From an uncultured Chitinophagales bacterium (lineage in GTDB: Bacteria > Bacteroidota > Ignavibacteria > UBA10030 > UBA6906), in assembly GCA_964359075.1 (NCBI GenBank), contig CAYHRX010000001.1, positions 1-27,467 on the forward strand: a DNA stretch of 27,467 nucleotides, in the 5' to 3' direction. The notes beneath the pieces were generated by a model. The model was given only the letters and a program-made list of their open reading frames with translations. It searched no databases and had not been told where the DNA came from. The translations under genes were made by a program, and so were the position numbers. Positions within the stretch are counted from its first letter, which is position 1; each line of letters starts with the position of its first letter. Of the stretch, positions 11,744 to 24,047 are shown one piece after another.

Positions 11744-11799
11744 TATCGCGCGCTGAGCATCCTGCAGATGAACGATATGTGGTGTGTGTTAATCACGAA

Positions 11800-11815
11800 T
11801 TGAGAACATGTGCCA
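11800..11815 (-). promoter_or_regulatory. Possible sigma54-type promoter for the giant gene (good -24 box, poor -12 box)
   Basis: Minus strand TGGCAC-ATGTT-CTCAA, with the same CTGGCACA -24 block as the two major pilin promoters. A palindromic site lies about 65 nt upstream, as at those promoters. Confidence 0.35.
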
Positions 11816-11872
11816 GTTTCTTAGGGATGTACATTCGCTTGCTTTGACCCTCAAGATCGTCAAGTGTGCAAT

Positions 11873-11885
11873 CCTCACGCTGAGA
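11873..11885. promoter_or_regulatory. Putative enhancer (activator-binding) palindrome
   Basis: CCTCA-CGC-TGAGA, a near-perfect match to the locus motif TCTCA-N3-TGAGA. Confidence 0.45.
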
Positions 11886-11890
11886 TAGTT

Positions 11891-12295
11891 TCACGCGACT
11901 CGAACTCCAGCCGCCACGTGCTCCCGTCCAGAAAATTCGTCATACAGGAACGCAAGGAGTTCGTGCTTCAACGAGTACTTGTCAATAAAACCATCGGCCG
12001 AGTGTTGCCAGGCCATGCTGCGATAGAGGCTGCTTCCGTTCATCGAGAGAATGACCACCTTCGTGCCCGGCAAACGAAGCTTGATCTCCCGTGTCGCACT
12101 GAAGCCGTCTCGCCCTGGCATATCCAGATCCATCAGCACAAGATCCGGATGAAGCTTTTCTGCCTGGTCGATCGCTTCGACACCGTCAGCAGCTTCACCG
12201 ACGATTTCAACGCCCGGCTGGGCCCGGAGAAACGAAAGAAGTGAGCGCCGAAAACTCTCGTGATCGTCAGCGACCAGAACTCTGATTGATTTCAT
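11891..12295 (-). CDS. Stand-alone response regulator receiver protein (NarL-type REC, no output domain)
   Basis: VLVADDH acidic pocket, PDLVLMDLDMPGRDG with phosphoacceptor Asp, GFIDK with conserved Lys; 134 aa; SD GGAGAG upstream. Confidence 0.92.
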   Translation of the reverse strand: MKSIRVLVADDHESFRRSLLSFLRAQPGVEIVGEAADGVEAIDQAEKLHPDLVLMDLDMPGRDGFSATREIKLRLPGTKVVILSMNGSSLYRSMAWQHSADGFIDKYSLKHELLAFLYDEFSGREHVAAGVRVA

Positions 12296-12339
12296 GATGT
12301 AACTCTCCTTAAGTGTTGAGGTAAGTGAATTGTCAAATC

Positions 12340-12759
12340 TCAGGAATTCCCAGACCGCGCTACACCGTTGGACGCGTACACGGCGGCCAGGAGAAGGGAT
12401 CCTTCACCGAACGTCGCTTCAAGACCCGGTTTCAAATCGGATTTCGCGATAAATCCATCCGCGCGTACCTCCTGAGCCCGCAAGCGGTAGGCTGCGTCGT
12501 CATTCATCGTCGCGATGACGACGACTTTGGAGGGCCAGCGTTGCTTGATGATGCGCGTCGCCTCCAACCCATTTCGATGGGGCATCGCGATGTCCATCAA
12601 CACAATATCGGGATTGAGCTGCTCCATCTTCTCGATGACATCAACCCCATCGATCGCTTCGCCCACCACGGAGACGTTGGGCATTCTGCTCAGGAATTCG
12701 CGAACGATTCTCCGGAAGTCGTTGTGATCATCCGCGATAAGGATCTTGACAGGCTCCAT
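12340..12759 (-). CDS. Stand-alone response regulator receiver protein (NarL-type REC, no output domain)
   Basis: ILIADDH, PDIVLMDIAMPHRNG, GFIAK; 139 aa; SD GAGGAG upstream; paralogue of the adjacent receiver. Confidence 0.92.
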   Translation of the reverse strand: MEPVKILIADDHNDFRRIVREFLSRMPNVSVVGEAIDGVDVIEKMEQLNPDIVLMDIAMPHRNGLEATRIIKQRWPSKVVVIATMNDDAAYRLRAQEVRADGFIAKSDLKPGLEATFGEGSLLLAAVYASNGVARSGNS

Positions 12760-12880
12760 GGTGATCTCCTCAGGAAATGCTTGAATGGAATTCCACTGGC
12801 ATCAAAATTCACACAAAAGGGCACGATCCACCATAGGATCAGCACCGTAATTTCAAAAATACGTGGTCGTACGGATGCGG

Positions 12881-12898
12881 CTACGGTCTGCACCGTAG
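12881..12898. promoter_or_regulatory. Perfect 7-bp inverted repeat upstream of the receiver pair (operator or small hairpin)
   Basis: CTACGGT-ctgc-ACCGTAG in the intergenic region; function unknown. Confidence 0.25.
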
Positions 12899-13124
12899 AC
12901 AAAGTGAGATCGGAGGTTAGATTATTGACGAATAGTGGCGTGAAGACAAAAAGTGGCGAGCGGGAAAGGGGAAAGCGATACCGCGGACGTTTTGGGAGAC
13001 GCGTAACGTCCGTCGCTACTCAACGAAGGGGGATAATTAACTGGATCAAAACTGGCTCGGGGGTGTAGACGAGCCGAAGGATATCAGAAGGTGAAAGACG
13101 CGAGGAAGGAAGAGAGTGGAAAAG

Positions 13125-13502
13125 TTAGTCCGAGACTGTCACGACAACTGCGCTCGAGACATGCTGTCGTTCAGCGTAACGTTTGCCAGTGTCTGCGCCG
13201 GCGGCGGAAGTTGAAGCGTCAAGTTCGAAGCTGAGATTCCGTTGGCGAGGTAAGTCTGCTGCGAGGGTAAGCTTTGGTTGCGATCGATACGCGCGGGTTT
13301 GTGCTGTGGACGCCGATCGTTCGCTCATCTGATCCACATTCTGTGATGCAGACGATTGGGAAGCCAGAGAGATCGGTCCATTCGTTCTGTGGACACTGAA
13401 CGTGACTGTCTGAGCTGCAGAACTTGATCGTTGCGCAAACGCCTGGCCTGCACACATCCCACACACAGCAACGAGAGCTACGATATGTCCGAGTGGTTTC
13501 AC
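13125..13502 (-). CDS. Small secreted protein, degenerate relative of the pilin-like family
   Basis: Signal peptide ending GQAFA/Q; N-terminal AAQTVTFSV like ANQTVTLAV of the major subunit; C-terminal VVVTVSD like TVTLTLTN; Ser/Ala/Gln-rich middle. GTG start without a clear SD. Confidence 0.6.
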   Translation of the reverse strand: MKPLGHIVALVAVCGMCAGQAFAQRSSSAAQTVTFSVHRTNGPISLASQSSASQNVDQMSERSASTAQTRAYRSQPKLTLAADLPRQRNLSFELDASTSAAGADTGKRYAERQHVSSAVVVTVSD

Positions 13503-13517
13503 AGGAGATGTCTACTT

Positions 13518-14009
13518 TTATTCCGTTAGCGTCAGCGTAATCACCCGAGACTGTGCATCAATCTCATTGACACTCTCGTTTGCCGCGAAGGTGTAGGTGA
13601 TGCTCTGATTCAAGACGCTCCCGCGGTTAATCCCTGTCACGACATTGATCGGTGTGCGAGCGCGCGAGATATCAACAGGACCGTTGCTGACACCTTGCGA
13701 ACTCTCGAGCTTGATCACAAGCTGGGTCCCTTCGGGCATCACATCGCTGATCGAAGCAACGATCTTCATGTTGTCGAGATTCGTGAGCATGCTGTAGCGC
13801 GTGTTATTGTCACTCACGGACAAGACGTTCGGGTCACCCAATAGACCGTTGATGGTCAGTTCGCCAGGATTACCGTTGACTGCAATTTTCGTGATCGGTT
13901 TGACTTCAACAGTCACGATCTGAACGACACTGGCGCCGCTCTGTGCCACCAGTTGAAGGGGAACGAGTAGGAGTAAAAGAAGGATGAGTTTGTGAACTGC
14001 CTTAGCCAT
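13518..14009 (-). CDS. Secreted pilin-like subunit, clear paralogue of the duplicated major subunit (ORF can extend to 14051)
   Basis: Signal peptide MAKAVHKLILLLLLLVPLQLVA/Q; shares AV.GNPG.LT, SVSDN.T.YS, G.VDIS, VVTG.NRG, ITYTF.AN.S and TLTLT motifs with 20035..20535. Confidence 0.85.
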   Translation of the reverse strand: MAKAVHKLILLLLLLVPLQLVAQSGASVVQIVTVEVKPITKIAVNGNPGELTINGLLGDPNVLSVSDNNTRYSMLTNLDNMKIVASISDVMPEGTQLVIKLESSQGVSNGPVDISRARTPINVVTGINRGSVLNQSITYTFAANESVNEIDAQSRVITLTLTE

Positions 14010-14095
14010 TGTCTTGAAGAAGTAAGCAAAACAAACGATGAATGTCAACATGTTTCACGATTTTCGACGCAGAATGTTCGACCTCCAGACATAGC

Positions 14096-14111
14096 ATCAA
14101 GAGGAATGCCA
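14096..14111 (-). promoter_or_regulatory. Putative sigma54-type promoter (-24/-12)
   Basis: Minus strand TGGCAT-TCCTC-TTGAT; GG and -12 box at sigma54 spacing; intergenic and upstream of the 13518..14009 gene. Confidence 0.6.
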
Positions 14112-14139
14112 AAACGCTGACGTTTTCAATTTTGTGTGT

Positions 14140-14152
14140 TCTCGTTTTGAGT
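14140..14152. promoter_or_regulatory. Putative enhancer palindrome (single site)
   Basis: TCTCG-TTT-TGAGT, about 36 nt upstream of the -24 box, closer than at the other promoters. Confidence 0.35.
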
Positions 14153-14391
14153 CAGCGCATGCAAGGCTGTTGAGGTCAACGCTTTCACTGTCCATTTCGG
14201 ATGACATCAGATCGATTTGAAATTTCTACAAGGAGTGGGCTTAGCTCGAGTCCATGAGTTGACATCCGAGAAGGATAAATCTCGTAAAGCGCGTGAAGCA
14301 CCGACAGATTCTTCACGAGCAGAGTAAGGAAGGATTCCAATGAGATCTCAGGGAGGCGGGAGGCAGAGATCTACACGAGAGCTCCTTGAGA

Positions 14392-17300
14392 TTACCGTTT
14401 CTTCCGGATCTCTTGAGCCGCGATTTCGGCGAGCTTTTTTGATGAGAAGTTACCAACGTAGACGCTGTACCGAGTTCCAAGTTGCCGCAACACCGTCTTT
14501 CTAACAAATGCGTGATATCCAAATGCTCGCTGCAGATTGGCGGCTTCACGGACTGCTTTTTCTTCCGTGACCCAGGAGGACACCAGGATTGAGAATCCAG
14601 TCTCCTTCGGTAGACGCACCACAATATGCGTCGTATCAAGAGTCTTTATCGGAGCCAGCTTAGTCGTCGGCCGTGGAGGCTTTGCCACCACTGGCGGCTG
14701 GGCCGGCTTCTTTCGCTCGACCGGCTTCGTTTCCTCGAGCAACTTGCCTTCCTGCAGTATCTGAATCCGTCGTCTTCGTGGAAGTATCTTCAGCTCAATG
14801 TGCTGTGTCCCGCCGGGAGCGACTTCAAGTTCGACTCCCTCCTTCTCAAAATAATGATTGGCAGGCAAGTTACCTTCGACCACTTGGAGGGACCACCGAC
14901 CCGGCCGCATTCCAGTAAAACTGAAACGGCCTCGATTGTCAGAAATACGACGGTGGGATTCAAGGGAATTCGCCAGCTCCAATATCACATTGGAATGACC
15001 TCCGAGTTCGGCATACGCTATGCGGGTAGTGTCTATCTGTACGGAGTCTATCAGACCGTAGAGCAAGACCGTCCCGGAGATCGTCGCACCGCGAATCACC
15101 CCAAGATCGACCCGAGCCTCTTCACCCCCTTTGATCGTTATCTCCCGCGGCATCGGCTGCGACGGGACACGATTGAGACCGATGCTCCCCATATCGATCT
15201 GGATATAGTACTTGTCAGGCTTCAAGGACGGGAAAAAGAATTCTCCGTTGCGATCCGTCACTGCCGTAGCGCCACTGGCATAAATCAGAACATTGGGCAA
15301 ACCCTTTCCAGCTTCAGCATCGACAACGCTGCCGCGAAGTCGTCCGGTCGTGGTGATGCGAGAGAGGGAAACGCCAATGGGAATACTATACTCGAGGAGG
15401 TACGCGACATCCTTCGAGCCGAACGAGGGAGTGAACTCGCTTTGCCGGCCCCTCAACGCGAGCCGGTGGCCGAAGGGGAATGTGTGTTCGAGCGCAACAT
15501 CAATCAAATAGTAGGTCTGCTTGATCGAGTCAGGCGTACGACTGCCATACGCGCTCAACGTGAACTGAGTTCGGGCACCGAGCATGAGCCAAGCGCTCAA
15601 GCTTCCAGAGAGGCGCTTCTGTATCTCATCGGTGAAAATATTTTGGTCTTTCGAGTATTCGACGGATAGACCAATGCTCGAGAAAGATGTGGGTCTGAAG
15701 TTTGTGAAGAGCGTGTACCGTTGAAAGGGATACTTCTTCCCAACGACCGTATCTTGAGTCCTGCCGAAATCGGCGTTGGCAATGAACCCGAGAGATGAGA
15801 AGTTGTGCCCCATACGAACCTGCACCAGCTCCTCGTCCCGTCTGTACTTCGGAATCGGCAAGAGATCATCTTGATGGTTCAGTCGATAGTAAATCGCCAG
15901 GAGATCGGAATATCCCGCTCCGAACTGAAAGTAGCGCTCGCGAGGGGCAAAAAAGAGAGTCGTATCTCGCTCAAGATTGCGCTCCTCATCGCGGAAGTAC
16001 GCCTCCAGCCTGATATTGCTCCACGGCATCACGCTAAGATTGAGCGTCTTGAATTCTAGGTCCTTGTAGTAGCCGGCGTACTTTGGCCCCGCCCAAACAT
16101 ACCGTGCCTCATAGGCAATCCATTGCTCGCGTCCGGTAACGCGCGCCGAGTATGCTTTGTCAGCCAGACCCCCTCTGTACCCCCGACCGTACTCAAGGTC
16201 GACTTCTGAGTTCTTGAGAGGCCGGAGGAGACTTCGGACCGTAACGATATCACTCTTTGTCTGATCGATCTTTCGCAGGTAGTTGAGACCAAGCTCGGAG
16301 CTCTGCCCCAACCGGTAGCTGAGAAACCCAGCCGCCTCCTTCTGCAGCGGCACGAGAAATCGGGTTTCGTTGTAGAAGCCTCCAATCGTCACGAGACCAA
16401 GCGCCGCCTTGCCTCCTGCCCCGAACGCGTATCGGTTGAATTCTGTCAATGGCGAGAGGTTGTAGTTCTTGTCACCTGCGTAGACTTCATACCCTTCGGT
16501 TTGGTAACTGATAAGGTATTCGTCACGCTGCCCCAGAATCGATCGCTGTTGAATGTCAGGAGTTCGAAGTAGAACGTCCAGCCGATCGCGTCGCCCTTCG
16601 CCAAGAGCACCGGATCCCATGATCTCGACCTGAGCACCTTTCGCCGTCCGCCCTCCCGCGGCACGCAAGCGAACCTGCAATGGAAATTCAAAGAACTGAT
16701 CTTCCACGCCGGTAACCTTCGGCACAACCTCGACTGAGCCTGAGGCTCGACCGGCGAAGAGGGAATCTTGGTCGCGCATCGCAAGGATCTCGAATACGTC
16801 CTGAACCTTCTGCAACAGCCGAGGTTCTGTCTGGACAACCGCCTTCAGCTGACGCGTTTCGTTGGGCCTCAGTTGGACTCTACTTGAATCCAACTGGACA
16901 GAAAAGTTGTTGCTGCTTCGCGGTGTGAGGCGAATCCTTCCTACTGCATTCCCCTTATTTGTGATGAGGAAGAGAGCAGTGTACGGGTCCCCTGCCAGAA
17001 CATATCTGGGCAGTTCCAGCAGCCTCAACTCAAGTTGTTGGACGGAGGTTACAACCACTGTGACGGAGGCTTGTGCTGTGGTCGTTGGAGCAGCCGCATC
17101 CTTGACGCTGTAGTGAATCTCGTAGCGAGCGGCAGGAGTTTCGGCAGGAATCGAAAAGCTGATGAGACGGATGTCGCTTGCTCCGGCGGAGAGCTCATAC
17201 GCAGTCTCTTTCTTGAACGCCCTCCAACCGGTCGGAAGAACAACGCTCGGCTCAAGCCGCACCGACGCCATCGAGTTGTTGGAGACCCTCATACTGACTG

Positions 17301-17484
17301 TCACAATCTTGCCAGGCGGCGTCTCGACACGCGGTTCGCTTGCCGGACGCACCTCGATGTTCTGTGCCTGAACACCATGAACAGCCACCGGCGCCAGCAC
17401 GGCAAGCATCAGAATAAAAAAAAATATCCGGTTGTGATGGACCGGATGTATCATCGCACGCAAATTCACTGTCGTCGAGGTCAA
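14392..17484 (-). CDS. Usher-like outer-membrane assembly protein: two N-terminal Ig/NEW3-like domains, central beta-barrel-like region, two carboxypeptidase-regulatory-like domains, Pro/Lys linker, C-terminal SPOR-like domain
   Basis: Signal peptide ending HGVQA/Q. PGKIVTVSMRVSN...LPTGW and AGDPYTALFLITNKGN are Ig-like segments, followed by a long run of amphipathic beta-strands. GRLRGSVVD...TDRNGEFFFPSLKPDKY and ATISGTV...SDNRGRFSFTGMRPGRW are CarboxypepD_reg-like repeats. The tail GFSILVSSW...RYSVYVGNFSSKKLAEIAAQEI is SPOR-like. TTG start overlaps the chaperone TGA stop (TTGA); alternative ATG starts at 17454 and 17409. Confidence 0.75.
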   Translation of the reverse strand: MTSTTVNLRAMIHPVHHNRIFFFILMLAVLAPVAVHGVQAQNIEVRPASEPRVETPPGKIVTVSMRVSNNSMASVRLEPSVVLPTGWRAFKKETAYELSAGASDIRLISFSIPAETPAARYEIHYSVKDAAAPTTTAQASVTVVVTSVQQLELRLLELPRYVLAGDPYTALFLITNKGNAVGRIRLTPRSSNNFSVQLDSSRVQLRPNETRQLKAVVQTEPRLLQKVQDVFEILAMRDQDSLFAGRASGSVEVVPKVTGVEDQFFEFPLQVRLRAAGGRTAKGAQVEIMGSGALGEGRRDRLDVLLRTPDIQQRSILGQRDEYLISYQTEGYEVYAGDKNYNLSPLTEFNRYAFGAGGKAALGLVTIGGFYNETRFLVPLQKEAAGFLSYRLGQSSELGLNYLRKIDQTKSDIVTVRSLLRPLKNSEVDLEYGRGYRGGLADKAYSARVTGREQWIAYEARYVWAGPKYAGYYKDLEFKTLNLSVMPWSNIRLEAYFRDEERNLERDTTLFFAPRERYFQFGAGYSDLLAIYYRLNHQDDLLPIPKYRRDEELVQVRMGHNFSSLGFIANADFGRTQDTVVGKKYPFQRYTLFTNFRPTSFSSIGLSVEYSKDQNIFTDEIQKRLSGSLSAWLMLGARTQFTLSAYGSRTPDSIKQTYYLIDVALEHTFPFGHRLALRGRQSEFTPSFGSKDVAYLLEYSIPIGVSLSRITTTGRLRGSVVDAEAGKGLPNVLIYASGATAVTDRNGEFFFPSLKPDKYYIQIDMGSIGLNRVPSQPMPREITIKGGEEARVDLGVIRGATISGTVLLYGLIDSVQIDTTRIAYAELGGHSNVILELANSLESHRRISDNRGRFSFTGMRPGRWSLQVVEGNLPANHYFEKEGVELEVAPGGTQHIELKILPRRRRIQILQEGKLLEETKPVERKKPAQPPVVAKPPRPTTKLAPIKTLDTTHIVVRLPKETGFSILVSSWVTEEKAVREAANLQRAFGYHAFVRKTVLRQLGTRYSVYVGNFSSKKLAEIAAQEIRKKR
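17416..17424 (-). repeat. T9 homopolymer in the 5' end of the usher-like gene
   Basis: Plus strand A9 (agaat-aaaaaaaaa-tatcc); coding strand ATA TTT TTT TTT ATT (IFFFI). Confidence 0.8.
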
Positions 17485-18299
17485 AACTTCAATGTGTACT
17501 CTGCTCCATAGACATCATCACCGCCAGCATCGACAACAACCAATGCTTTGTATGTGCCAGTTGAGACCTTGCTGAGGTCTATCATTTGTCGCACAGATGT
17601 GCCGGGATACATCCGATACCGGATCCCCGCGTACTTGCCTTGCGACACGCCTTTCTCATCAAACAACTCGACATAGACTTCCGGACGCATGCCAAGCTCG
17701 CCGCTGTTGCCAAGGTCGACCTGTAAGATCCTCTTTCCGTTTTCCTTCGTCACGAGCTTCGCGTCAAGAAACTCGACCTTCTTCGTACCCGTTTGCGCAA
17801 TATGCGTGGCGATCTGGATCCCATAGCGAATCGTCTGCCGAATCCCCATTTGCGTCTTCTTGGGGTCCCGCGGCTGTGTTGACTCTGCTGAACCCTTGGG
17901 AATGCCCTCAACCATCAACATGCTCCAGTACGAACCCACCAACGTATTCTCCTGCGTGGTTTCCGGCACAGCAACTGCATAATTGATGGTCACAGTTCCC
18001 TGCGGAGGGACCGTAAGATAGGACGGACTGAACGTCACCCATTTCGCGTTGGAGCGCACCAAGGTTCCGGGATCAGCATAGTTGTTTGTTCCATCGCGGT
18101 AAAACATATAGTCGGTTTGATATACCTTCGCTTCTTGCGGCTCATTGGTGTCGTTCCGAATAACGATGACGCCTTCATACCGTTCTCCGGGCCGAGTCTC
18201 TCGGTCATGGCTGAGCTCGCCAATAACGGACACTTGCGCGTACAGGGACAACGCTGCGAAAGAAATCATCGCGAAGGGGAGGAAGAATCGCGTGTGCAT
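17481..18299 (-). CDS. Periplasmic two-domain Ig-like (PapD/DUF916-like) pilus chaperone candidate
   Basis: Probable start MHTRFF at 18299 with signal peptide ending SLYA/Q. PGERYEGVIVIRN...WVTFSPSYLTVPPQGTVTINYAV...GSYWSMLMVE first domain and LQVDLGNSG...YPGTSVRQ...GTYKALVVVD second domain are typical of chaperone-like proteins beside usher genes. Confidence 0.75.
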   Translation of the reverse strand: MHTRFFLPFAMISFAALSLYAQVSVIGELSHDRETRPGERYEGVIVIRNDTNEPQEAKVYQTDYMFYRDGTNNYADPGTLVRSNAKWVTFSPSYLTVPPQGTVTINYAVAVPETTQENTLVGSYWSMLMVEGIPKGSAESTQPRDPKKTQMGIRQTIRYGIQIATHIAQTGTKKVEFLDAKLVTKENGKRILQVDLGNSGELGMRPEVYVELFDEKGVSQGKYAGIRYRMYPGTSVRQMIDLSKVSTGTYKALVVVDAGGDDVYGAEYTLKF

Positions 18300-18306
18300 G
18301 GGGAGC

Positions 18307-18807
18307 CTATAGTACAAGTAGGGTGTAGGTAACCGTATGAACGTCGTTCCCTTGCTCTGCGCTGTTGCCTTGAGCAAAAGTCGCCGACGCCGTGTATCGA
18401 AGTGTGATCGTCGTAACAGTGAATCCTGCGTTTGGAATGTTCGTGACGAAATCCGTGTCCAGCATCCCGTTCACGAGTGTGACCTCCGGGGCAGCGACCC
18501 CTCGCGTCACGCCGGTCCCCAATACTTTCAAGGTAAAGCTTTGACTAGGACAGGTCGTCCGTACGGTTATCTTGCTGATCGCTGCTTGCCTTCGGTATCG
18601 AAGCGTTGAAGCAGTATTGACTACCGGCAGCGGTTCTGAGCCTGGCGAACCAGTGGTGATATTCAGAGTCTGATTGCCGCCGCGGACATCAATCGGCTGC
18701 GCTTTCATCTCTGCTGCAGAACAAACGATCGCAAGCAGCAAGACACCGAGCGAGATTGCCATCCGTTCTGCTCGAGGACTTCCAGGATGTTTTGCCTTCT
18801 CAGCCAT
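18307..18807 (-). CDS. Secreted minor pilin-like subunit lacking the family's first N-terminal strand
   Basis: Probable start MAEKAKH (18807) or MAISLGV (18762); signal peptide ending EMKA/Q; KITV, PEVTL, LRYTASA and HTVTYTL motifs are shared with neighbours. Confidence 0.8.
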   Translation of the reverse strand: MAEKAKHPGSPRAERMAISLGVLLLAIVCSAAEMKAQPIDVRGGNQTLNITTGSPGSEPLPVVNTASTLRYRRQAAISKITVRTTCPSQSFTLKVLGTGVTRGVAAPEVTLVNGMLDTDFVTNIPNAGFTVTTITLRYTASATFAQGNSAEQGNDVHTVTYTLLVL

Positions 18808-18826
18808 GGCGGATTTCGGACCGCTA

Positions 18827-19336
18827 CTAATTTGTGACAGTGAATGTGATCGTATGGGAATCTGTTCCGGTGCCCTGGGATGCGAGCGCAGCACCTGTGT
18901 ACCGCAAGGTGCAACTCCCAGTTGATCGCCCAATGTTCAGCAAGAAATCGCTTGCCGTTGTGCTCAGCGTGACTTCAGGCATCGCCGTGCCCACCGTTGG
19001 ACTCAACGCCACGACCTTTAGAGTAAACTGCGGTGCAGCAAGATTGCTATTGACGGTAATCTTTCTGTTCGCACTGTTGACGCCCCACAAAAGGTTTGAT
19101 GTCTGGTCAACGACTGTCCCTAGTGCGTCCTGTCCAGCAACTGCGCCAGCACCGGTGATCGTAAGGCTAACACTTGGCGAACTTACTTGGACTGCCGTAA
19201 TCGTCGCCACAGTGACAGTCACGGTATGAAAATCCGAGCCATAGACCTGCGCCGTTGCTCTTCCAATGAAGCAGAAATGACAGAGAATCAGCGCAATCAA
19301 TGCGAACGGCTTTTTCAGTGAGCGTCCCGATTTCAC
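18827..19336 (-). CDS. Secreted minor pilin-like subunit
   Basis: Probable GTG start at 19336 (VKSGRSLKKPFALIALILCHFCFIGRATA/Q). HTVTVTV N-terminal strand, RKITV, PEVTLS, CTLRYTG, SHTITFTVTN. The ORF-track extension to 19534 overlaps the upstream gene. Confidence 0.8.
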   Translation of the reverse strand: MKSGRSLKKPFALIALILCHFCFIGRATAQVYGSDFHTVTVTVATITAVQVSSPSVSLTITGAGAVAGQDALGTVVDQTSNLLWGVNSANRKITVNSNLAAPQFTLKVVALSPTVGTAMPEVTLSTTASDFLLNIGRSTGSCTLRYTGAALASQGTGTDSHTITFTVTN

Positions 19337-19443
19337 AGTGCGCGTTTTTGGCAAAAGAACCCCGGTGGAGGCAACGGACAGGTGGAATATAGGTTCAATC
19401 GAATTGAGATTCAAGATGCACAACCGTATTGGTAACAGCGGCT

Positions 19444-19953
19444 CTAACTGCCTGTAATCGTATAGGTAATAATATACGTTTCGCTGCCGACGCCATCGCC
19501 GATCTTCGCCGATGCCGTAAACTTGACCTTGCATCTCCCTATGGTCTTCGAAACGCCGATTACCATGTCTTTGGTGGTATTATCGCTGAGAACAACCTCC
19601 GGACCAGCGACCCCGGCCGAGTTGGGGACATCGAGGGCAACGAGCTTTATGAGGAAACGGGGGGAAGGGTTGTTGCTTGCAACGGTAATTTTCTTATTCT
19701 CACCATTGGTTATCCACATCAACACTCCCTCTTCATTCACCGCCGGAATCGCCTTTCCATCTTCGAGCGATGCTTGGTCAATGATGAGCGTGACTGCGGT
19801 GTTGTTGATACCGATCTTGTTGATCTCGAGAACCTGGAGGGTGAGAACCTGATCCGTGCTGGCCTGTTGACCGATGAGCCGGGCTGAGAACAGGAAGCTC
19901 AGGAGCGTTGCCTTCCACCATCTTGCAGCCATATTTTTGATTCCAGCTTTCAT
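19444..19953 (-). CDS. Secreted minor pilin-like subunit
   Basis: Signal peptide; QVLTLQV N-terminal strand, KKITV, PEVVLS, CKVKFTASA, YIITYTITGS; aligns by eye with 18827..19336. Confidence 0.85.
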   Translation of the reverse strand: MKAGIKNMAARWWKATLLSFLFSARLIGQQASTDQVLTLQVLEINKIGINNTAVTLIIDQASLEDGKAIPAVNEEGVLMWITNGENKKITVASNNPSPRFLIKLVALDVPNSAGVAGPEVVLSDNTTKDMVIGVSKTIGRCKVKFTASAKIGDGVGSETYIITYTITGS

Positions 19954-19981
19954 TGGTCGTCGATCCTTCTGATGATCCAGG

Positions 19982-20017
19982 ATCCGCGGCCGGTCACTCC
20001 CGGAACCAGCCGCGGAT
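19982..20017 (-). other. Strong GC-rich stem-loop between the major subunit gene and the minor genes, with no U-tract
   Basis: Minus strand ATCCGCGGCTGGT-tccgggagtg-ACCGGCCGCGGAT: 13-bp stem including one G-U pair, 17 nt after the stop codon. Confidence 0.65.
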
Positions 20018-20034
20018 ACTTCCTCGCTTGGAAA

Positions 20035-20535
20035 CTAGTTTGTCAAGGTCAGGGTGACGGTCTTGCTTGTGGAACTGAGCGTGCCAGCCGACGCATTCGC
20101 TGAGAAGGTGTAAGTAATCGCCTGTCCCGCATCTGCTCCTCTGTTCATCCCCGTGACCACATCCACTGCACTGCCTGAAGTCGCATTCGAAATGTCAACG
20201 TTGCCTGCACTCGTACCCTTCGTGCTCGCAAGATTCAATAACAGCGTGTAGCCCGCTGACAACGCTGCATCCATATAGGCAGTGACCTTCACCGTGCTGG
20301 CAACATTCTGCGTGATGCTGTAGTTCGTTGAGTTATCACTGACCGATGACAGAGCATCCACTCCTGCCGTACCGGTCGTGACTGTCAACGCACCAGGGTT
20401 GCCAGATACCGCAAGCCTATAGACCGCATTCACAGCCAGTGTGACGGTCTGGTTTGCAGTTGCCTGAGCCATTGCGCTTTGCACAAGAACCATACTCAGA
20501 ACTGCAGCGACGAGTGTTACGACGATCTTTTTCAT
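20035..20535 (-). CDS. Major pilin-like subunit, copy A (166 aa)
   Basis: SD GGAG-tttaca-ATG; signal peptide MKKIVVTLVAAVLSMVLVQSAMA/Q; no Cys; Ala/Ser/Thr-rich beta-strand protein with N-terminal ANQTVTLAV and C-terminal KTVTLTLTN; has its own promoter. Confidence 0.88.
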   Translation of the reverse strand: MKKIVVTLVAAVLSMVLVQSAMAQATANQTVTLAVNAVYRLAVSGNPGALTVTTGTAGVDALSSVSDNSTNYSITQNVASTVKVTAYMDAALSAGYTLLLNLASTKGTSAGNVDISNATSGSAVDVVTGMNRGADAGQAITYTFSANASAGTLSSTSKTVTLTLTN

Positions 20536-20602
20536 TGTAAACTCCTTGTGTGTATTAAGTTCTTTGGGCATCCCATTCGGTCTCTTATCTGTTCCATAAT
20601 AG

Positions 20603-20618
20603 CTCAAACGCTGTGCCA
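20603..20618 (-). promoter_or_regulatory. Putative sigma54-type promoter for copy A and the downstream operon
   Basis: Minus strand TGGCAC-AGCGT-TTGAG. Confidence 0.7.
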
Positions 20619-20671
20619 GCGCCTCTGCTCGACTTTTCCTTTATTTTCCAACCCCGCGGCTCGGGTGCCTG

Positions 20672-20703
20672 TACCAAAATGATTACGCTGATTCAGAATG
20701 AGA
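20672..20703. promoter_or_regulatory. Putative paired enhancer sites
   Basis: TACCA-AAA-TGATT, 6-nt spacer, ATTCA-GAA-TGAGA. Further single matches at 20779-20791 (TCTCA-ATC-TGAAA) and 20818-20830. Confidence 0.45.
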
Positions 20704-20887
20704 AGGGGAACGCTAGTCTCTTTTTTGCAACAAGCTCGCAATCCCGTCTTGAATCCTGATGCATCAGCACGGCTTCCGTCTCAATCTGAAAGCGAGATCC
20801 ATCCTTGAACGCCAGTACCACAAAATGAGATTTCAGAAGGTAAGCAGCTTGGCTGGACGAAGGTATCTGATTGAACGCTTGGAGGGT

Positions 20888-20936
20888 AAAAAAAACACAA
20901 AGAGGGTCTCAACTTGCGTTGAGAACCCCCTCTGTG
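20888..20936 (-). terminator. Rho-independent terminator after copy B
   Basis: Minus strand cacagagggggttctcaac-GCAA-gttgagaccctctttgtg-tttttttt: bulged stem, GNRA tetraloop, T8 tail. Confidence 0.75.
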
Positions 20937-20970
20937 CTTATCGGAGGCGACGGGATGCTCCGCGATAAGA

Positions 20971-21471
20971 CTAGTTTGTCAAGGTCAGGGTGACGGTTTT
21001 GCTTGTGGAACTGAGCGTGCCAGCCGACGCATTCGCTGAGAAGGTGTAGCTAATCGCCTGTCCCGCATCTGCTCCTCTGTTCATCCCCGTGACCACATCC
21101 ACTGCACTGCCTGAAGTCGCATTCGAAATGTCAACGTTGCCTGCACTCGTACCCTTCGTGCTCGCAAGATTCAATAACAGCGTGTAGCCCGCTGACAACG
21201 CTGCATCCATATAGGCAGTGACCTTCACCGTGCTGGCAACATTCTGCGTGATGCTGTAGTTCGTTGAGTTATCACTGACCGATGACAGAGCATCCACTCC
21301 TGCCGTACCGGTCGTGACTGTCAACGCACCAGGGTTGCCAGATACCGCAAGCCTATAGACCGCATTCACAGCCAGTGTGACGGTCTGGTTTGCAGTTGCC
21401 TGAGCCATTGCGCTTTGCACAAGAACCATACTCAGAACTGCAGCGACGAGTGTTACGACGATCTTTTTCAT
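20971..21471 (-). CDS. Major pilin-like subunit, copy B (166 aa)
   Basis: SD GGAGG-ctaca-ATG; identical to copy A except ITYTF -> ISYTF. Confidence 0.88.
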   Translation of the reverse strand: MKKIVVTLVAAVLSMVLVQSAMAQATANQTVTLAVNAVYRLAVSGNPGALTVTTGTAGVDALSSVSDNSTNYSITQNVASTVKVTAYMDAALSAGYTLLLNLASTKGTSAGNVDISNATSGSAVDVVTGMNRGADAGQAISYTFSANASAGTLSSTSKTVTLTLTN

Positions 21472-21524
21472 TGTAGCCTCCGACGAGTATTTTGTTTGCT
21501 GTTTCATTGTTCTGGTGTAGCTAC

Positions 21525-21540
21525 CTCAATAGCTGTGCCA
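21525..21540 (-). promoter_or_regulatory. Putative sigma54-type promoter for copy B
   Basis: Minus strand TGGCAC-AGCTA-TTGAG. Confidence 0.7.
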
Positions 21541-21595
21541 GGCTCTCTTTCCTAAGAAACTCAAGAGAACGGTTCATCTGTCCCCGTTTGAGCTG

Positions 21596-21627
21596 TGTCA
21601 TTTTGAGTTTGTTGACTCAAATTGAGA
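21596..21627. promoter_or_regulatory. Putative paired enhancer sites
   Basis: TGTCA-TTT-TGAGT, 6-nt spacer, ACTCA-AAT-TGAGA; the whole 32-mer is nearly palindromic. Confidence 0.6.
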
Positions 21628-21686
21628 CCAGGCTCCAAGATGGCATTAAATCATTCAACACGCAAAAAAGCCCGGAGAATAGGTTC

Positions 21687-21718
21687 TTTGGATTTGAGTG
21701 ATACCTCTCAGTCTGAGA
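21687..21718. promoter_or_regulatory. Putative paired enhancer sites
   Basis: TTTGG-ATT-TGAGT, 6-nt spacer, perfect TCTCA-GTC-TGAGA. Confidence 0.55.
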
Positions 21719-21793
21719 CAGCCAGGATGCTGGCGCATTTGAACATGTGAGAAATAGTGCCCGTTCCGGCCCAAATAATTGGATTAGCCCATA

Positions 21794-21809
21794 TGGCATA
21801 CCTCTTGAG
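21794..21809 (+). promoter_or_regulatory. Putative sigma54-type promoter for the kinase-activator operon
   Basis: Plus strand TGGCAT-ACCTC-TTGAG, matching the 14096-14111 site at 14 of 16 positions. Confidence 0.65.
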
Positions 21810-21919
21810 TTAGATCTATTAGTCAAAGCCTTGCGCGCGAAGTGTCCAGATCTGATGTCGGGGCGCGCGAGACGTGTTGTGCTTCAACATCTTCAGTTCA
21901 TAGACAATCGGTGACGAGC

Positions 21920-22645
21920 ATGGAACATCTTGTACATACGAGAACGGACGAGAGCGAAGTGCTCTCAAGGATTTCCCACGAACTTCGAACGCCGCTGACG
22001 TCCATCATCGGCTACGCCGAAGTTATGTTAAGCGACCCGAGGTTGTCTCCCGATCTCAAGCGCGAGTACGTGGAGATCATCAGGGACGCAGGGAAACGAT
22101 TGTCGAATTTTCTTGACAACTACTTTGACAGTACGTTCGCGGAACGCGAGAAACAACCTCGAGGTCGATCGGACGAGGACTTGTCAGTGATCGTGAAGTG
22201 GTCGGTGGACCTCGTCTCCGCCGATGCGGAGGTAAAATCCGTGTCATTCAGCTCGGCGTGCGACCAGTCTGTCATCCTCGCGAATGTCAATACTACTCAC
22301 CTTGTGCATATCCTGCAAAACATTTTGACGAACGCCATACAGCTCGCCCCAAGGGGCGGTCATGTGGAGATTCAGGTCGTGGCGGATTCCTCCTCCATCG
22401 AAATCCTCATAATCAATCGGGATTTGGGCATTCTGAGCACATCGGTGACGAGCGTTTGCCAGAACTTTAGGTGGATTCAATCCCCCGGCGTTGAGATACG
22501 CGAAAACGGGCTGGGTCTTGCATTTGCCAAACATGTTGTCGAACTTGAGGGGGGGGAACTGACCGTTCAGACAGACCATGAAGAGGGTCTGACGTTCAAA
22601 CTCGAATTTCCGAATCGGTCCACGGCCACAACCGCACACTCTTGA
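21920..22645 (+). CDS. Sensorless histidine kinase-like protein (HisKA plus degenerate HATPase_c)
   Basis: H-box SHELRTPLTSIIGYAE within ~20 aa of the probable ATG (21920); N-box LQNILTNAI; G1 region reads IINRDLGI, F-box VCQNF, G2 ENGLGL. The ORF track extends to a GTG at 21842. Confidence 0.85.
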   Translation: MEHLVHTRTDESEVLSRISHELRTPLTSIIGYAEVMLSDPRLSPDLKREYVEIIRDAGKRLSNFLDNYFDSTFAEREKQPRGRSDEDLSVIVKWSVDLVSADAEVKSVSFSSACDQSVILANVNTTHLVHILQNILTNAIQLAPRGGHVEIQVVADSSSIEILIINRDLGILSTSVTSVCQNFRWIQSPGVEIRENGLGLAFAKHVVELEGGELTVQTDHEEGLTFKLEFPNRSTATTAHS

Positions 22646-22661: not shown

Positions 22662-24047
22662 ATGACATCCGAACGACTTATCTACATCGTTGACGACGAG
22701 GACACAATCGCGCGTCTTCTCGAGCATTGGGTCACGAAAAAGTGGGGCTATCAATCGCGATTATTCGTCACAGGCGAAGCGTGCCTGGAAAACCTAACCA
22801 CGGTACCCGACGTCATTCTCCTCGACATCATGCTTCCGGGCATCGGCGGCGTTGATACGCTGAAGGAGATCAAAAATCGTTTTCCTGATCTCCCGGTGAT
22901 AATGCTTTCTGCCCAGGGTAAAATCGATGTTGCGATCGAGACGCTCAAACTTGGCGCAACAGACTACTTTACAAAACCTGTGGATTTTTCCAAGCTGGAA
23001 GTGAGTGTCAAGAATGCCATCCAGACACACGACCTCGCACGCGAAGTCACCCGACTGCGGGAAGCTGTCGAAAAACCGGTCCACTTCGAAAACATCATTA
23101 CCGATAACGGCGCAATGCAGGAGGTCTTCAAGCTCGTGCAGAAGGTGAAAGACAGCGACATCTGCGTGCTTGTGCTGGGAGAGAGCGGAACGGGAAAAGA
23201 ATTGATCGCGCGAGCGATTCACTACAATGGTAATCGGAAGAATCAACCGTTTGTGGTTGTCAACTGCGCATCAATTCCAAGAGATTTGCTGGAGAGCGAG
23301 CTGTTCGGCCACGAAAAAGGTTCGTTTACCGGTGCGTATCAACGGCGCATCGGCAAGTTCGAACAAGCGATCGGGGGCACACTGTTTCTTGACGAAATTG
23401 GCGAGCTCGATCTCAGCCTTCAGGCTAAGCTGCTCCGCGTCATCCAGAGCAAGCAGTTTGAGCGTGTCGGAGGAAACGAGACGTTGACGACGGATGTTCG
23501 GCTTGTCTCGGCAACCAACAGAGATATTGTGAAAGCCGTCGCTCAAAAGCAGTTCCGCGAGGACCTCTATTTCCGGCTGGCCACGTTCCCGATCCTCATT
23601 CCACCGTTGCGCGACCGACGATCCGATATTCTGCTTTTGTCAGAACATTTCCTTAAGCGCTTCTCGCAAGAGCTTTCGAAGCCAAGCATGGGTTTTTCAA
23701 AGAAAGCGCTCAAGCTCATGTACGACTATGCGTGGCCTGGCAACGTTCGTGAACTGGAGAATGCTATCCAGCGTGCCACCCTTATGTCGGACGGCAACAG
23801 CATCACGGAGAAAGACCTTCCCCTGGCTGTGTTGACCTTTGGTTCACAAGACGACGCCGGTTCAGGCTCGCCTCTTACTATCGGCGTAGAAGCCATCAAG
23901 CCACTCGAAAAGATCAAAGAAGAAACGATTCGCGAGGCACTGAAGGTTACAGAAGGAAATATTGTTGAGGCTGCGAGAAGGTTGAAGATCGGGCGTGCGA
24001 CGATGTATCGATCGATGAAGAAGTACAAGATCACCGAGCAGAAGTAG
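22662..24047 (+). CDS. NtrC-family sigma54-dependent response regulator (REC, AAA+, Fis-type HTH)
   Basis: IYIVDDE and LLDIMLPG receiver; Walker A GESGTGKE; ESELFGHEKGSFTGA (GAFTGA-loop variant); Walker B LFLDEIGEL; FREDLYFRL; WPGNVRELEN; GNIVEAARRLKIGRATMYR HTH. Confidence 0.97.
   Translation: MTSERLIYIVDDEDTIARLLEHWVTKKWGYQSRLFVTGEACLENLTTVPDVILLDIMLPGIGGVDTLKEIKNRFPDLPVIMLSAQGKIDVAIETLKLGATDYFTKPVDFSKLEVSVKNAIQTHDLAREVTRLREAVEKPVHFENIITDNGAMQEVFKLVQKVKDSDICVLVLGESGTGKELIARAIHYNGNRKNQPFVVVNCASIPRDLLESELFGHEKGSFTGAYQRRIGKFEQAIGGTLFLDEIGELDLSLQAKLLRVIQSKQFERVGGNETLTTDVRLVSATNRDIVKAVAQKQFREDLYFRLATFPILIPPLRDRRSDILLLSEHFLKRFSQELSKPSMGFSKKALKLMYDYAWPGNVRELENAIQRATLMSDGNSITEKDLPLAVLTFGSQDDAGSGSPLTIGVEAIKPLEKIKEETIREALKVTEGNIVEAARRLKIGRATMYRSMKKYKITEQK

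What the first reader, a model, noticed from the sequence alone, without database searches (positions are those of the whole stretch)
11800..21809. Locus-wide sigma54-type promoters that all use a variant -12 box (TTGA instead of TTGC)
Four intergenic sites, each correctly oriented just upstream of a gene, read TGGCAC-AGCTA-TTGAG (21540-21525), TGGCAC-AGCGT-TTGAG (20618-20603), TGGCAT-TCCTC-TTGAT (14111-14096) and TGGCAT-ACCTC-TTGAG (21794-21809, plus strand). A fifth, before the giant gene, keeps only the -24 box (seen). The standard sigma54 consensus is TGGCAC-N5-TTGC, and an NtrC-type activator is encoded here (established). Consistent A at -12 suggests a lineage- or regulon-specific sigma54 specificity (inference).
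Basis: partly seen in the sequence, partly recalled or inferred. Interest (0 to 1): 0.65.

Follow-up and report, generated by a model that had tools for sequence, protein, structure and literature searches.

The report
Sigma-54 promoters with TTGA box
Four real-looking sigma-54 promoters in a surface-fibre gene cluster of an uncultured groundwater Ignavibacteria bacterium read TTGA where textbooks say TTGC. Comparison shows this is normal for the whole Bacteroidota phylum, whose sigma-54 has a changed DNA-reading helix; it is not a peculiarity of this locus.

Summary
TGGCAY-N5-TTGA occurs four times in the window (0.18 expected), always intergenic and facing a gene. No TTGC version is present.

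The genome has a full-length rpoN. An NtrC-type activator (GSFTGA loop) sits beside the promoters, and palindromic enhancer-like sites lie upstream.

The variant is not locus-specific:
- **This genome:** promoter-zone hits split A 11, C 9, G 6, T 1.
- **A second Ignavibacteria genome:** A 7, C 7, T 4, G 1.
- **E. coli ChIP-seq sites:** 125 of 135 have C.
- **Promoters before homologous subunit genes (32):** A 19, T 8, C 5, G 0.
- **dnaK promoters from 11 Bacteroidota families (26):** A 15, T 7, G 3, C 1.

The homologous gene cluster in Desulfobacterota carries canonical TTGC-T, so the variant follows the lineage, not the regulon.

All 57 Bacteroidota RpoN proteins I read have DISTxSR(V/A)… where E. 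coli has HESTISRVTT (E378 to Ile or Val).

No transcription start or binding data exist, so function is inferred. I found no paper describing this. Earlier notes of this scan (e1-5241871, e1-4365500) reached similar readings on other DNA.

Verdict: real promoters, a lineage-typical variant, moderately interesting.

The parts
21526..21540 (-). Sigma-54-type promoter TGGCAC-AGCTA-TTGA(G) of subunit gene copy 1. Predicted start is near 21513.
   Evidence: It lies 54 nt before the ATG at 21471. Orthologous promoters are conserved.
20604..20618 (-). Sigma-54-type promoter TGGCAC-AGCGT-TTGA(G) of subunit gene copy 2. Predicted start is near 20591.
   Evidence: It lies 68 nt before the ATG at 20535. 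Its flanks are unrelated to those of copy 1, yet the box is kept.
14097..14111 (-). Sigma-54-type promoter TGGCAT-TCCTC-TTGA(T) of the divergent (41% identical) subunit gene.
   Evidence: The same position in G031, G032 and G040 carries TTGC, TTGA and TTGA respectively.
21794..21808 (+). Sigma-54-type promoter TGGCAT-ACCTC-TTGA(G) of the histidine kinase and activator operon, which implies autoregulation.
   Evidence: The syntenic promoters read TTGC in G031, TTGA in G032 and TTGT in G040.
11801..11815 (-). Partial site before the giant gene: TGGCAC-ATGTT-CTCA. It has a -24 box only, and its -12 region overlaps an enhancer-like half site.
   Evidence: Its function was not assessed.
21596..21627 (.). 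Pair of enhancer-like palindromes (TCTCA-N3-TGAGA type, an imperfect 14-nt inverted repeat), 56-101 bp upstream of the 21526-21540 promoter.
21706..21718 (.). Perfect palindrome TCTCAGTCTGAGA, 76 bp upstream of the plus-strand promoter.
20691..20830 (.). Four enhancer-like sites (20691-20703, 20779-20791, 20785-20797, 20818-20830) upstream of the 20604-20618 promoter.
14140..14152 (.). Enhancer-like site upstream of the 14097-14111 promoter.
20907..20924 (-). Terminator-like hairpin with a T-run between the two subunit genes. It makes them separate transcription units.
20971..21471 (-). Subunit gene copy 1: a 166-aa secreted protein with no Pfam family. Its nearest protein-atlas clusters include one named 'fimbrial assembly protein family'.
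20035..20535 (-). Subunit gene copy 2, 99% identical to copy 1.
13518..14009 (-). Divergent subunit gene, 41% identical to copy 1.
21842..22645 (+). Cytoplasmic histidine kinase (HisKA + HATPase_c).
22662..24047 (+). NtrC-type enhancer-binding protein: receiver domain, AAA+ sigma-54 interaction domain with a GSFTGA loop and GESGTGKE Walker A motif, and a Fis-type HTH.

Best explanation
The four sites are genuine sigma-54 (RpoN) promoters. The neighbouring histidine kinase and NtrC-type activator most likely switch them on by binding the TCTCA-N3-TGAGA palindromes upstream. The promoters drive three subunit genes of a fimbria-like surface-fibre cluster and the regulator operon itself.

Their TTGA box is not a local oddity. 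In Ignavibacteria, and apparently across Bacteroidota, the last base of the canonical -12 TTGC is not conserved; A is at least as common as C. This accompanies a phylum-wide difference in the sigma-54 helix-turn-helix that reads the -12 element.

- **Shown:** motif positions and statistics, rpoN and the activator, conservation across relatives, the contrast with E. coli sites, and the canonical box in the Desulfobacterota homologue.
- **Inferred:** that the sites are transcribed by sigma-54 holoenzyme, that this activator is the one used, and that the helix-turn-helix change causes the altered base preference.
For: **The sites**
- There are 4 sites against 0.18 expected, and all are oriented to genes.
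- rpoN is full length, with a canonical RpoN box ARRTVAKYR.
- The adjacent activator has Sigma54_activat at E 1.8e-70, a GSFTGA loop and a Walker A motif.
- 11 of 23 enhancer-like palindrome hits fall in the 1.3 kb of promoter-bearing intergenic DNA.
- No sigma-70-type or Bacteroidota TAnnTTTG box lies in these spacers.

**Genome-wide**
- The promoter zone covers 8% of positions. It holds 11 of 21 TTGA sites (p 1e-7), 9 of 16 TTGC (p 9e-7), 6 of 20 TTGG and 1 of 9 TTGT.
- Spacing controls sit near background: N4 3 of 72, N6 8 of 66.
- TTG is the only enriched trimer at that offset.
- G032 gives A 7, C 7, T 4, G 1.

**Comparisons**
- 32 promoters before subunit homologues keep TGGCA and TG invariant by the search rule. 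The unconstrained T before TG is kept in 27 of 32. The next base is A 19, T 8, C 5, G 0, and a CA sits at the predicted start.
- dnaK promoters in 11 Bacteroidota families: A 15, T 7, G 3, C 1.
- E. coli ChIP-seq sites, by my count from the tables of PMC4591121: C 125, A 6, T 4, G 0.
- The homologous cluster with its own activator in Desulfobacterota reads TGGCAC-N5-TTGC-T in all 13 contigs, representing 3 distinct promoter versions.
- The RpoN helix reads DISTxSR(V/A)… in all 57 Bacteroidota sequences, against HESTISRVTT in E. coli.
- E378 and R383 are described as highly conserved and crosslink to DNA (PMC5505868).
Against: - No transcription start, ChIP or in vitro data exist for this organism.
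- Metatranscriptome contigs only show that the subunit and kinase genes occur in RNA libraries. One low-depth contig (21429-21614) runs across a promoter and may be DNA carry-over.
- My gene calls are crude longest-ORF calls. About 3 of the 27 promoter-zone hits are expected to be chance.
- Two genomes from other Bacteroidota classes had too few sites to test genome-wide.
- In E. coli in vitro work, C or G at the base after GC abolishes transcription (PMC10083551). Three of the four promoters here have G there. Either this sigma-54 behaves differently or these promoters are weak.
- A K. pneumoniae 377/378 double mutant keeps a value of 68 in the first numeric column of the mutant-library table. 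E378 alone may therefore not explain the change.
- TTGC promoters exist and can be conserved: the C19 family keeps C in 4 of 4 genomes.
Confidence: 0.8

Rival explanations
1. Regulon-specific tuning. The A (or T) is selected at these particular promoters, for example to set the strength or leakiness of fibre-subunit expression or to suit this activator, and sigma-54 itself is ordinary.
For: - The subunit promoter family has C in only 5 of 32 and G in 0 of 32.
- Another promoter family (C19) keeps TTGC in 4 of 4 genomes.
- Both types coexist in one genome.
Against: - Seven TTGA promoter-zone sites lie outside the locus, before unrelated genes.
- dnaK promoters across the phylum are also non-C.
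- The homologous regulon in Desulfobacterota uses TTGC-T.
- Syntenic promoters swap among A, C and T between relatives.
Confidence: 0.1
2. Decayed or weak promoters. The C-to-A change is a tolerated defect, like rare E. coli sites, with no change in sigma-54.
For: E. coli has 6 GA and 4 GT sites among 135. They include the working promoters hydN, pspA and pspG.
Against: - The frequency here is 41-59% A or T, against 7% in E. coli (Fisher p 1e-10 to 5e-18).
- The variant persists across families and classes.
- E. coli exceptions keep A or T at the next base in 9 of 10 (my count of the tables). These promoters mostly have G or C there.
Confidence: 0.05
3. Not sigma-54 promoters at all. The motif would be a binding site for another regulator or sigma factor, or chance.
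For: There is no direct transcription evidence, and one RNA-library contig crosses a site.
Against: - The exact -24 hexamer and 5-bp spacing are kept, with the neighbouring spacings N4 and N6 near background.
- An activator lies adjacent, in two phyla.
- The orientation is conserved and a CA sits at the predicted start.
- 0 of 100 shuffles reach 4 sites.
Confidence: 0.04

Closest known systems
Canonical sigma-54 (-24/-12) promoters, e.g. glnAp2, nifH and A. aeolicus dhsU (TGGCAC-N5-TTGC-W)
   Same: They share the -24 TGGCAY box, the 5-bp spacer, the TTG of the -12 box, an activator with an AAA+ domain, upstream enhancer sites, and a position 45-90 nt before the start codon.
   Different: C of the GC dinucleotide is replaced by A. 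C occupies that position in 125 of 135 E. coli sites. The following base is G in three of the four promoters, whereas E. coli prefers A or T (86%) and C or G is inactive in vitro (PMC10083551).
E. coli non-consensus -12 promoters: pspA and pspG (TTGTA), hydN (GTGAA)
   Same: They are working sigma-54 promoters with A or T in place of the C.
   Different: They are rare exceptions in E. coli (10 of 135) and keep A or T at the next base. Here the variant is the majority form, and the next base is mostly G or C.
Divergent autoregulated sigma-54 units such as zraP-zraSR, and PilS/PilR-sigma-54 control of pilin genes
   Same: A two-component activator operon and its structural-gene target lie back to back, each with a sigma-54 promoter, and share enhancer sites. 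A surface-fibre subunit is the cargo.
   Different: The cargo family is different: an uncharacterised secreted subunit family, not type IV pilin. The kinase has no sensor domain. The -12 box is the variant form.
Homologous subunit, 932-aa protein and activator cluster in Desulfobacterota MAGs (L398-L410)
   Same: The gene order is the same: activator, 161-166-aa subunits, a 271-aa protein, and a protein of about 930-1030 aa with a CarboxypepD_reg domain. Sigma-54 promoters lie in front.
   Different: Its promoters are canonical, TGGCAC-N5-TTGC-T.

Membership tests
Sigma-54-dependent (-24/-12) promoter | GG of a TGGCAY -24 box, placed 10 bp before the -12 dinucleotide | tested here: met
   All four sites match TGGCAY-N5-TTGA exactly. 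The N4 and N6 spacings are not enriched genome-wide.
Sigma-54-dependent (-24/-12) promoter | GC dinucleotide in the -12 box (TTGC) | tested here: not met
   All four sites read GA, and no TTGC version occurs in the window. C is present in 125 of 135 E. coli sites.
Sigma-54-dependent (-24/-12) promoter | rpoN encoded in the genome | tested here: met
   The gene lies on C177 and scores 184 bits to PF04552. The 488-aa protein aligns end to end with E. coli sigma-54 at E 8e-81.
Sigma-54-dependent (-24/-12) promoter | A bacterial enhancer-binding protein with a GAFTGA-type loop is available | tested here: met
   Gene 22662-24047 encodes Sigma54_activat at E 1.8e-70, with GSFTGA at residue 220 and GESGTGKE at 173.
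Sigma-54-dependent (-24/-12) promoter | Enhancer (UAS) sites roughly 60-200 bp upstream | tested here: inconclusive
   TCTCA-N3-TGAGA-like palindromes cluster upstream of every promoter: 11 of 23 hits fall in 4.7% of the window. Binding was not tested.
Sigma-54-dependent (-24/-12) promoter | Enrichment in intergenic DNA, oriented towards genes | tested here: met
   TTGA: 11 of 21 sites lie in a zone covering 8% of positions (p 1e-7). TTGC: 9 of 16. G032 replicates this.
Sigma-54-dependent (-24/-12) promoter | Transcription start about 12-13 nt downstream of the -12 box | tested here: inconclusive
   Only assembled metatranscriptome contigs are available, with no 5'-end information. A conserved CA lies at the predicted start in 32 aligned promoters.
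Sigma-54-dependent (-24/-12) promoter | Conservation of the boxes at orthologous positions while flanks diverge | tested here: met
   Shown for 32 subunit-gene promoters and for three syntenic loci.
E. coli-type non-consensus -12 promoters (pspA, hydN) | A or T kept at the base after the altered dinucleotide (the flipped base) | tested here: not met
   The window sites read TTGA-G, -G, -T and -G. In the subunit family that position is G 16, A 8, C 4, T 4, against 9 of 10 A or T in the E. coli exceptions (my count of the tables).

The most novel reading that the evidence does not exclude
Bacteroidota sigma-54 may recognise a different -12 element, TTG followed directly by A or T, instead of TGC followed by A or T. 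The A/T next to the G would then be the base that is flipped out and captured. Bubble nucleation would sit one base pair closer to the -24 box. The phylum-wide helix-turn-helix substitutions (E378I/V, T385V, T386N) would be the cause.

Hints in favour:
- The flipped-base pocket residues W328, S332, T339 and T380 are kept in this RpoN and in the Ignavibacteria relatives. W328 is lost in some other Bacteroidota families.
- In the subunit family, promoters with A or T after TTG have an unconstrained next base, while 4 of the 5 with C have A or T next.
- TTGG sites are mostly followed by A or T.

The genome-wide support is weak: A or T follows C-type boxes in 8 of 16 cases and A-type boxes in 5 of 18.
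Probability: 0.2. Interest if true: 0.75.

Novelty: new variant of a known kind. Interest (0 to 1): 0.5.

Why it matters
The GG/GC pair is treated as the near-universal signature of sigma-54 promoters, and prediction matrices are built mainly from Proteobacteria. If a whole phylum, including gut Bacteroides and environmental Ignavibacteria, does not keep the C, such tools would miss more than half of its sigma-54 promoters.

It also offers a natural experiment for structural work. The -12 element sits at the fork junction where melting begins. A sigma-54 with a different recognition helix and a different base preference there could show which contacts set promoter tightness and where the bubble nucleates.

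For this locus alone the result is ordinary: an activator-controlled surface-fibre operon.

Tried and rejected
- **RNA evidence.** Two run searches and one read-laying run gave only sparse assembled contigs and no 5' ends.
- **Genome-wide test in two other Bacteroidota classes (G043, G065).** These gave only 6 and 7 promoter-zone hits, near chance, so the test was uninformative.
- **Footprinting other promoters of this genome in relatives.** This mostly failed because the downstream proteins belong to large paralogue families. Only the C19 family gave clean orthologues.
- **Alternative register using the GC of TTGAGC (GG-N12-GC).** Rejected, because only 1 of the 4 window sites has it.
- **The idea that TTGAG is a half site of the TGAGA enhancer motif.** Rejected, because orthologues read TTGAC, TTGAA or TTGTG.
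- **Sigma-70-type and Bacteroidota sigmaA (TAnnTTTG) promoters.** None lies in the four spacers.
- **Within-order link between RpoN sequence and box type.** None found. The helix is the same in genomes whose subunit promoters read CTGC (G017) and TTGA (G032).
- **Literature.** Seven searches found no paper describing a Bacteroidota -12 variant. Barrios 1999 and Campbell 2017 are not held, so base-specific contacts could not be read.


Full report
**Observation.** The pattern TGGCAY-N5-TTGA occurs four times in the 27.5-kb window, at 14097-14111(-), 20604-20618(-), 21526-21540(-) and 21794-21808(+). That compares with 0.18 expected, and none of 100 dinucleotide shuffles reaches four. The canonical TGGCAY-N5-TTGC does not occur. 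Each site is intergenic and points at a gene. Two precede 99%-identical 166-aa secreted subunit genes, one precedes a 41%-identical paralogue, and one precedes a histidine kinase and activator operon on the other strand. The fifth site before the giant gene is TGGCAC-ATGTT-CTCA at 11801-11815(-), a -24 box only.

**Context.** Gene 22662-24047 encodes a receiver, AAA+ and Fis-HTH activator. It scores E 1.8e-70 to Sigma54_activat and has a GSFTGA loop and a GESGTGKE Walker A motif. The draft genome is 4.05 Mb in 801 contigs at 53.7% GC, from an uncultured groundwater Ignavibacteria bacterium. It encodes one full-length RpoN with a canonical RpoN box.

Palindromes of the type TCTCA-N3-TGAGA cluster upstream of every promoter. 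11 of 23 hits with two or fewer mismatches fall in the 1.3 kb of promoter-bearing spacers, and one at 21706-21718 is perfect. A terminator-like hairpin separates the two subunit genes, so each needs its own promoter. No sigma-70-type promoter and no Bacteroidota TAnnTTTG box lies in these spacers. The subunits belong to a large family with no Pfam model: 1812 cluster representatives at E ≤ 0.001, some of whose nearest protein-atlas clusters are named 'fimbrial assembly'.

**Is the A more than local?** I called crude genes and defined a promoter zone running from 200 nt upstream to 120 nt inside an ORF start, excluding other coding sequence. This zone covers 8% of strand positions.

| Set | A | C | G | T |
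|---|---|---|---|---|
| This genome, in zone / all hits | 11/21 | 9/16 | 6/20 | 1/9 |
| G032 (another family), in zone | 7 | 7 | 1 | 4 |
| E. coli ChIP-seq sites (my count, PMC4591121) | 6 | 125 | 0 | 4 |

- The binomial p values for this genome are 1e-7 (A), 9e-7 (C) and 0.004 (G); T is not significant.
- Spacing controls sit near background: N4 3 of 72 and N6 8 of 66.
- TTG is the only trimer enriched at that offset, 27 of 321 in the zone against 39 of 3783 outside.
- Seven TTGA sites therefore lie outside this locus, and TTGC is used about as often.
- The difference from E. coli is large (Fisher p 1e-10 to 2e-14).

**Orthologous promoters.** Homologues of the subunit gene in relatives and in 25 public MAG contigs gave 32 distinct upstream promoters, each selected as a TGGCAY-N6-TG match.
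- The T before TG, which the search did not constrain, is kept in 27 of 32.
- The next base is A 19, T 8, C 5, G 0.
- The base after that is G 16, A 8, C 4, T 4.
- A CA dinucleotide is common 12-13 nt further on, where the start is expected.
- Three syntenic loci keep all promoter positions while the base changes. G032 has TTGA at all four. G031 has TTGA once and TTGC elsewhere. G040 has TTGA and TTGT.

**Lineage or regulon?** Two tests separate them.

First, dnaK in this genome has TGGCAT-N5-TTGG 72 nt upstream. I read the sequence upstream of dnaK in 60 Bacteroidota genomes. 26 of them, from 11 families, carry a -24/-12 motif 105-145 nt before the gene. The critical base is A 15, T 7, G 3, C 1. 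A published survey also places heat-shock genes in the predicted Bacteroidota sigma-54 regulon (PMC12316311).

Second, the same gene cluster exists in Desulfobacterota MAGs: activator, 161-166-aa subunits, a 271-aa protein, and a protein of about 930 aa with a CarboxypepD_reg domain. Its promoters read TGGCAC-N5-TTGC-T, fully canonical, in all 13 contigs read. These represent three distinct promoter versions. The variant therefore follows the phylum, not the regulon.

**Sigma-54 itself.** Aligned to E. coli, the recognition helix reads MDISTISRVVNSKF where E. coli has MHESTISRVTTQKY. The changes are H377D, E378I, T385V, T386N and Q387S.
- DISTxSR(V/A)… is present in all 27 Ignavibacteriales RpoN proteins and in 30 from other classes of the phylum.
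- E378 and R383 are described as highly conserved and crosslink to promoter DNA (PMC5505868).
- A K. pneumoniae 377/378 double mutant keeps a value of 68 in the first numeric column of the mutant-library table. The 379/380, 383/384 and 385/386 mutants give 2, 0 and 10 (PMC2715252).
- The pocket residues for the flipped base (W328, S332, T339, T380; PMC10083551) are conserved here.

Linking these substitutions to the base preference is inference. The paper with the base contacts (Campbell 2017) is not held.

**An unresolved point.** In E. coli the base after GC is A or T in 86% of sites, and C or G there abolishes transcription in vitro. Three of the four promoters here, and 20 of the 32 in the subunit family, have G or C there. 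One reading is that in this phylum the A/T directly after TTG plays that role, shifting nucleation by one base pair. In the subunit family, 4 of the 5 C-type boxes are followed by A or T. Genome-wide the trend is weak: A or T follows C-type boxes in 8 of 16 cases and A-type boxes in 5 of 18. I give this 0.2.

**What is missing.** There is no transcription-start or binding evidence. Metatranscriptome contigs cover parts of the subunit and kinase genes, and one low-depth contig crosses a promoter. This proves nothing either way. My gene calls are crude. Related genomes are not independent samples. Two genomes from other classes were uninformative genome-wide. Seven literature searches found no description of this variant, which does not show that none exists.

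Earlier notes of this scan reached similar conclusions on other genomes, and I tested their claims here rather than relying on them:
- e1-5241871: the odd -12 base is normal for Bacteroidota, with a changed helix.
- e1-4365500: the same kind of divergent control region.
- e1-5178064: a TGGCA…TTGA motif before dnaK.

**Verdict.** The promoters are very probably real sigma-54 promoters under the adjacent two-component activator. The TTGA box is the lineage-typical form in Bacteroidota, not a locus-specific or regulon-specific signature, and not a strict switch to A. This is a new variant of a known kind and moderately interesting, mainly as a lead for sigma-54 promoter recognition and for promoter prediction in this phylum.

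Noticed in passing
L337/L338 (G000:C166:4454-4468, minus strand): dnaK of this genome has a sigma-54-type box, TGGCAT-GGGTG-TTGG, 72 nt before its ATG. A similar box lies 105-145 nt upstream of dnaK in 26 of 60 Bacteroidota genomes read. It was not found in families f23 and f31.
   Followed up: yes
window 12854-12861 (-): This is the only TAnnTTTG box (Bacteroidota sigmaA -7 type) near a gene start in the window. It lies about 95 nt before response-regulator gene 12340-12759. The two regulators and the giant gene may therefore be read from a housekeeping promoter rather than from the partial sigma-54 site.
   Followed up: no
L398:3075-10648, also L399-L410: Desulfobacterota MAGs carry the same cluster: an activator, a 74-aa HTH_8 protein, three subunits of 161-166 aa, a 271-aa protein, and a 932-aa protein with a CarboxypepD_reg domain. 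Its sigma-54 promoters are canonical TTGC-T. The subunit family is very large (1812 cluster representatives) and has no Pfam model.
   Followed up: partly
window 21511-21542: The promoter at 21526-21540 sits inside an imperfect inverted repeat (TGGCACAGCTA / TTGAGG / TAGCTACACCA) centred on the -12 box. It may be coincidence.
   Followed up: no
L099, L102, L106, L108 (family f23 RpoN): In one Bacteroidota family with small genomes (2-2.8 Mb), the RpoN extra-long helix reads AN(D/E)FATAL instead of AKWFI. It lacks the tryptophan that closes the flipped-base pocket in E. coli. These genomes also lack the dnaK sigma-54 box.
   Followed up: no
window 22662-24047, residue 220: The activator's sigma-54 contact loop reads GSFTGA rather than GAFTGA.
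   Followed up: no
window 21429-21614: A low-depth contig from a sediment metatranscriptome (run X22, 1 mismatch) spans the subunit gene start, its leader, the promoter and 74 nt beyond. It may be DNA carry-over or read-through.
   Followed up: no
window 11793-11805 and 11873-11885: Two enhancer-like half-palindromes flank the partial TGGCAC site before the giant gene. One of them overlaps the position where a -12 box should be.
   Followed up: no
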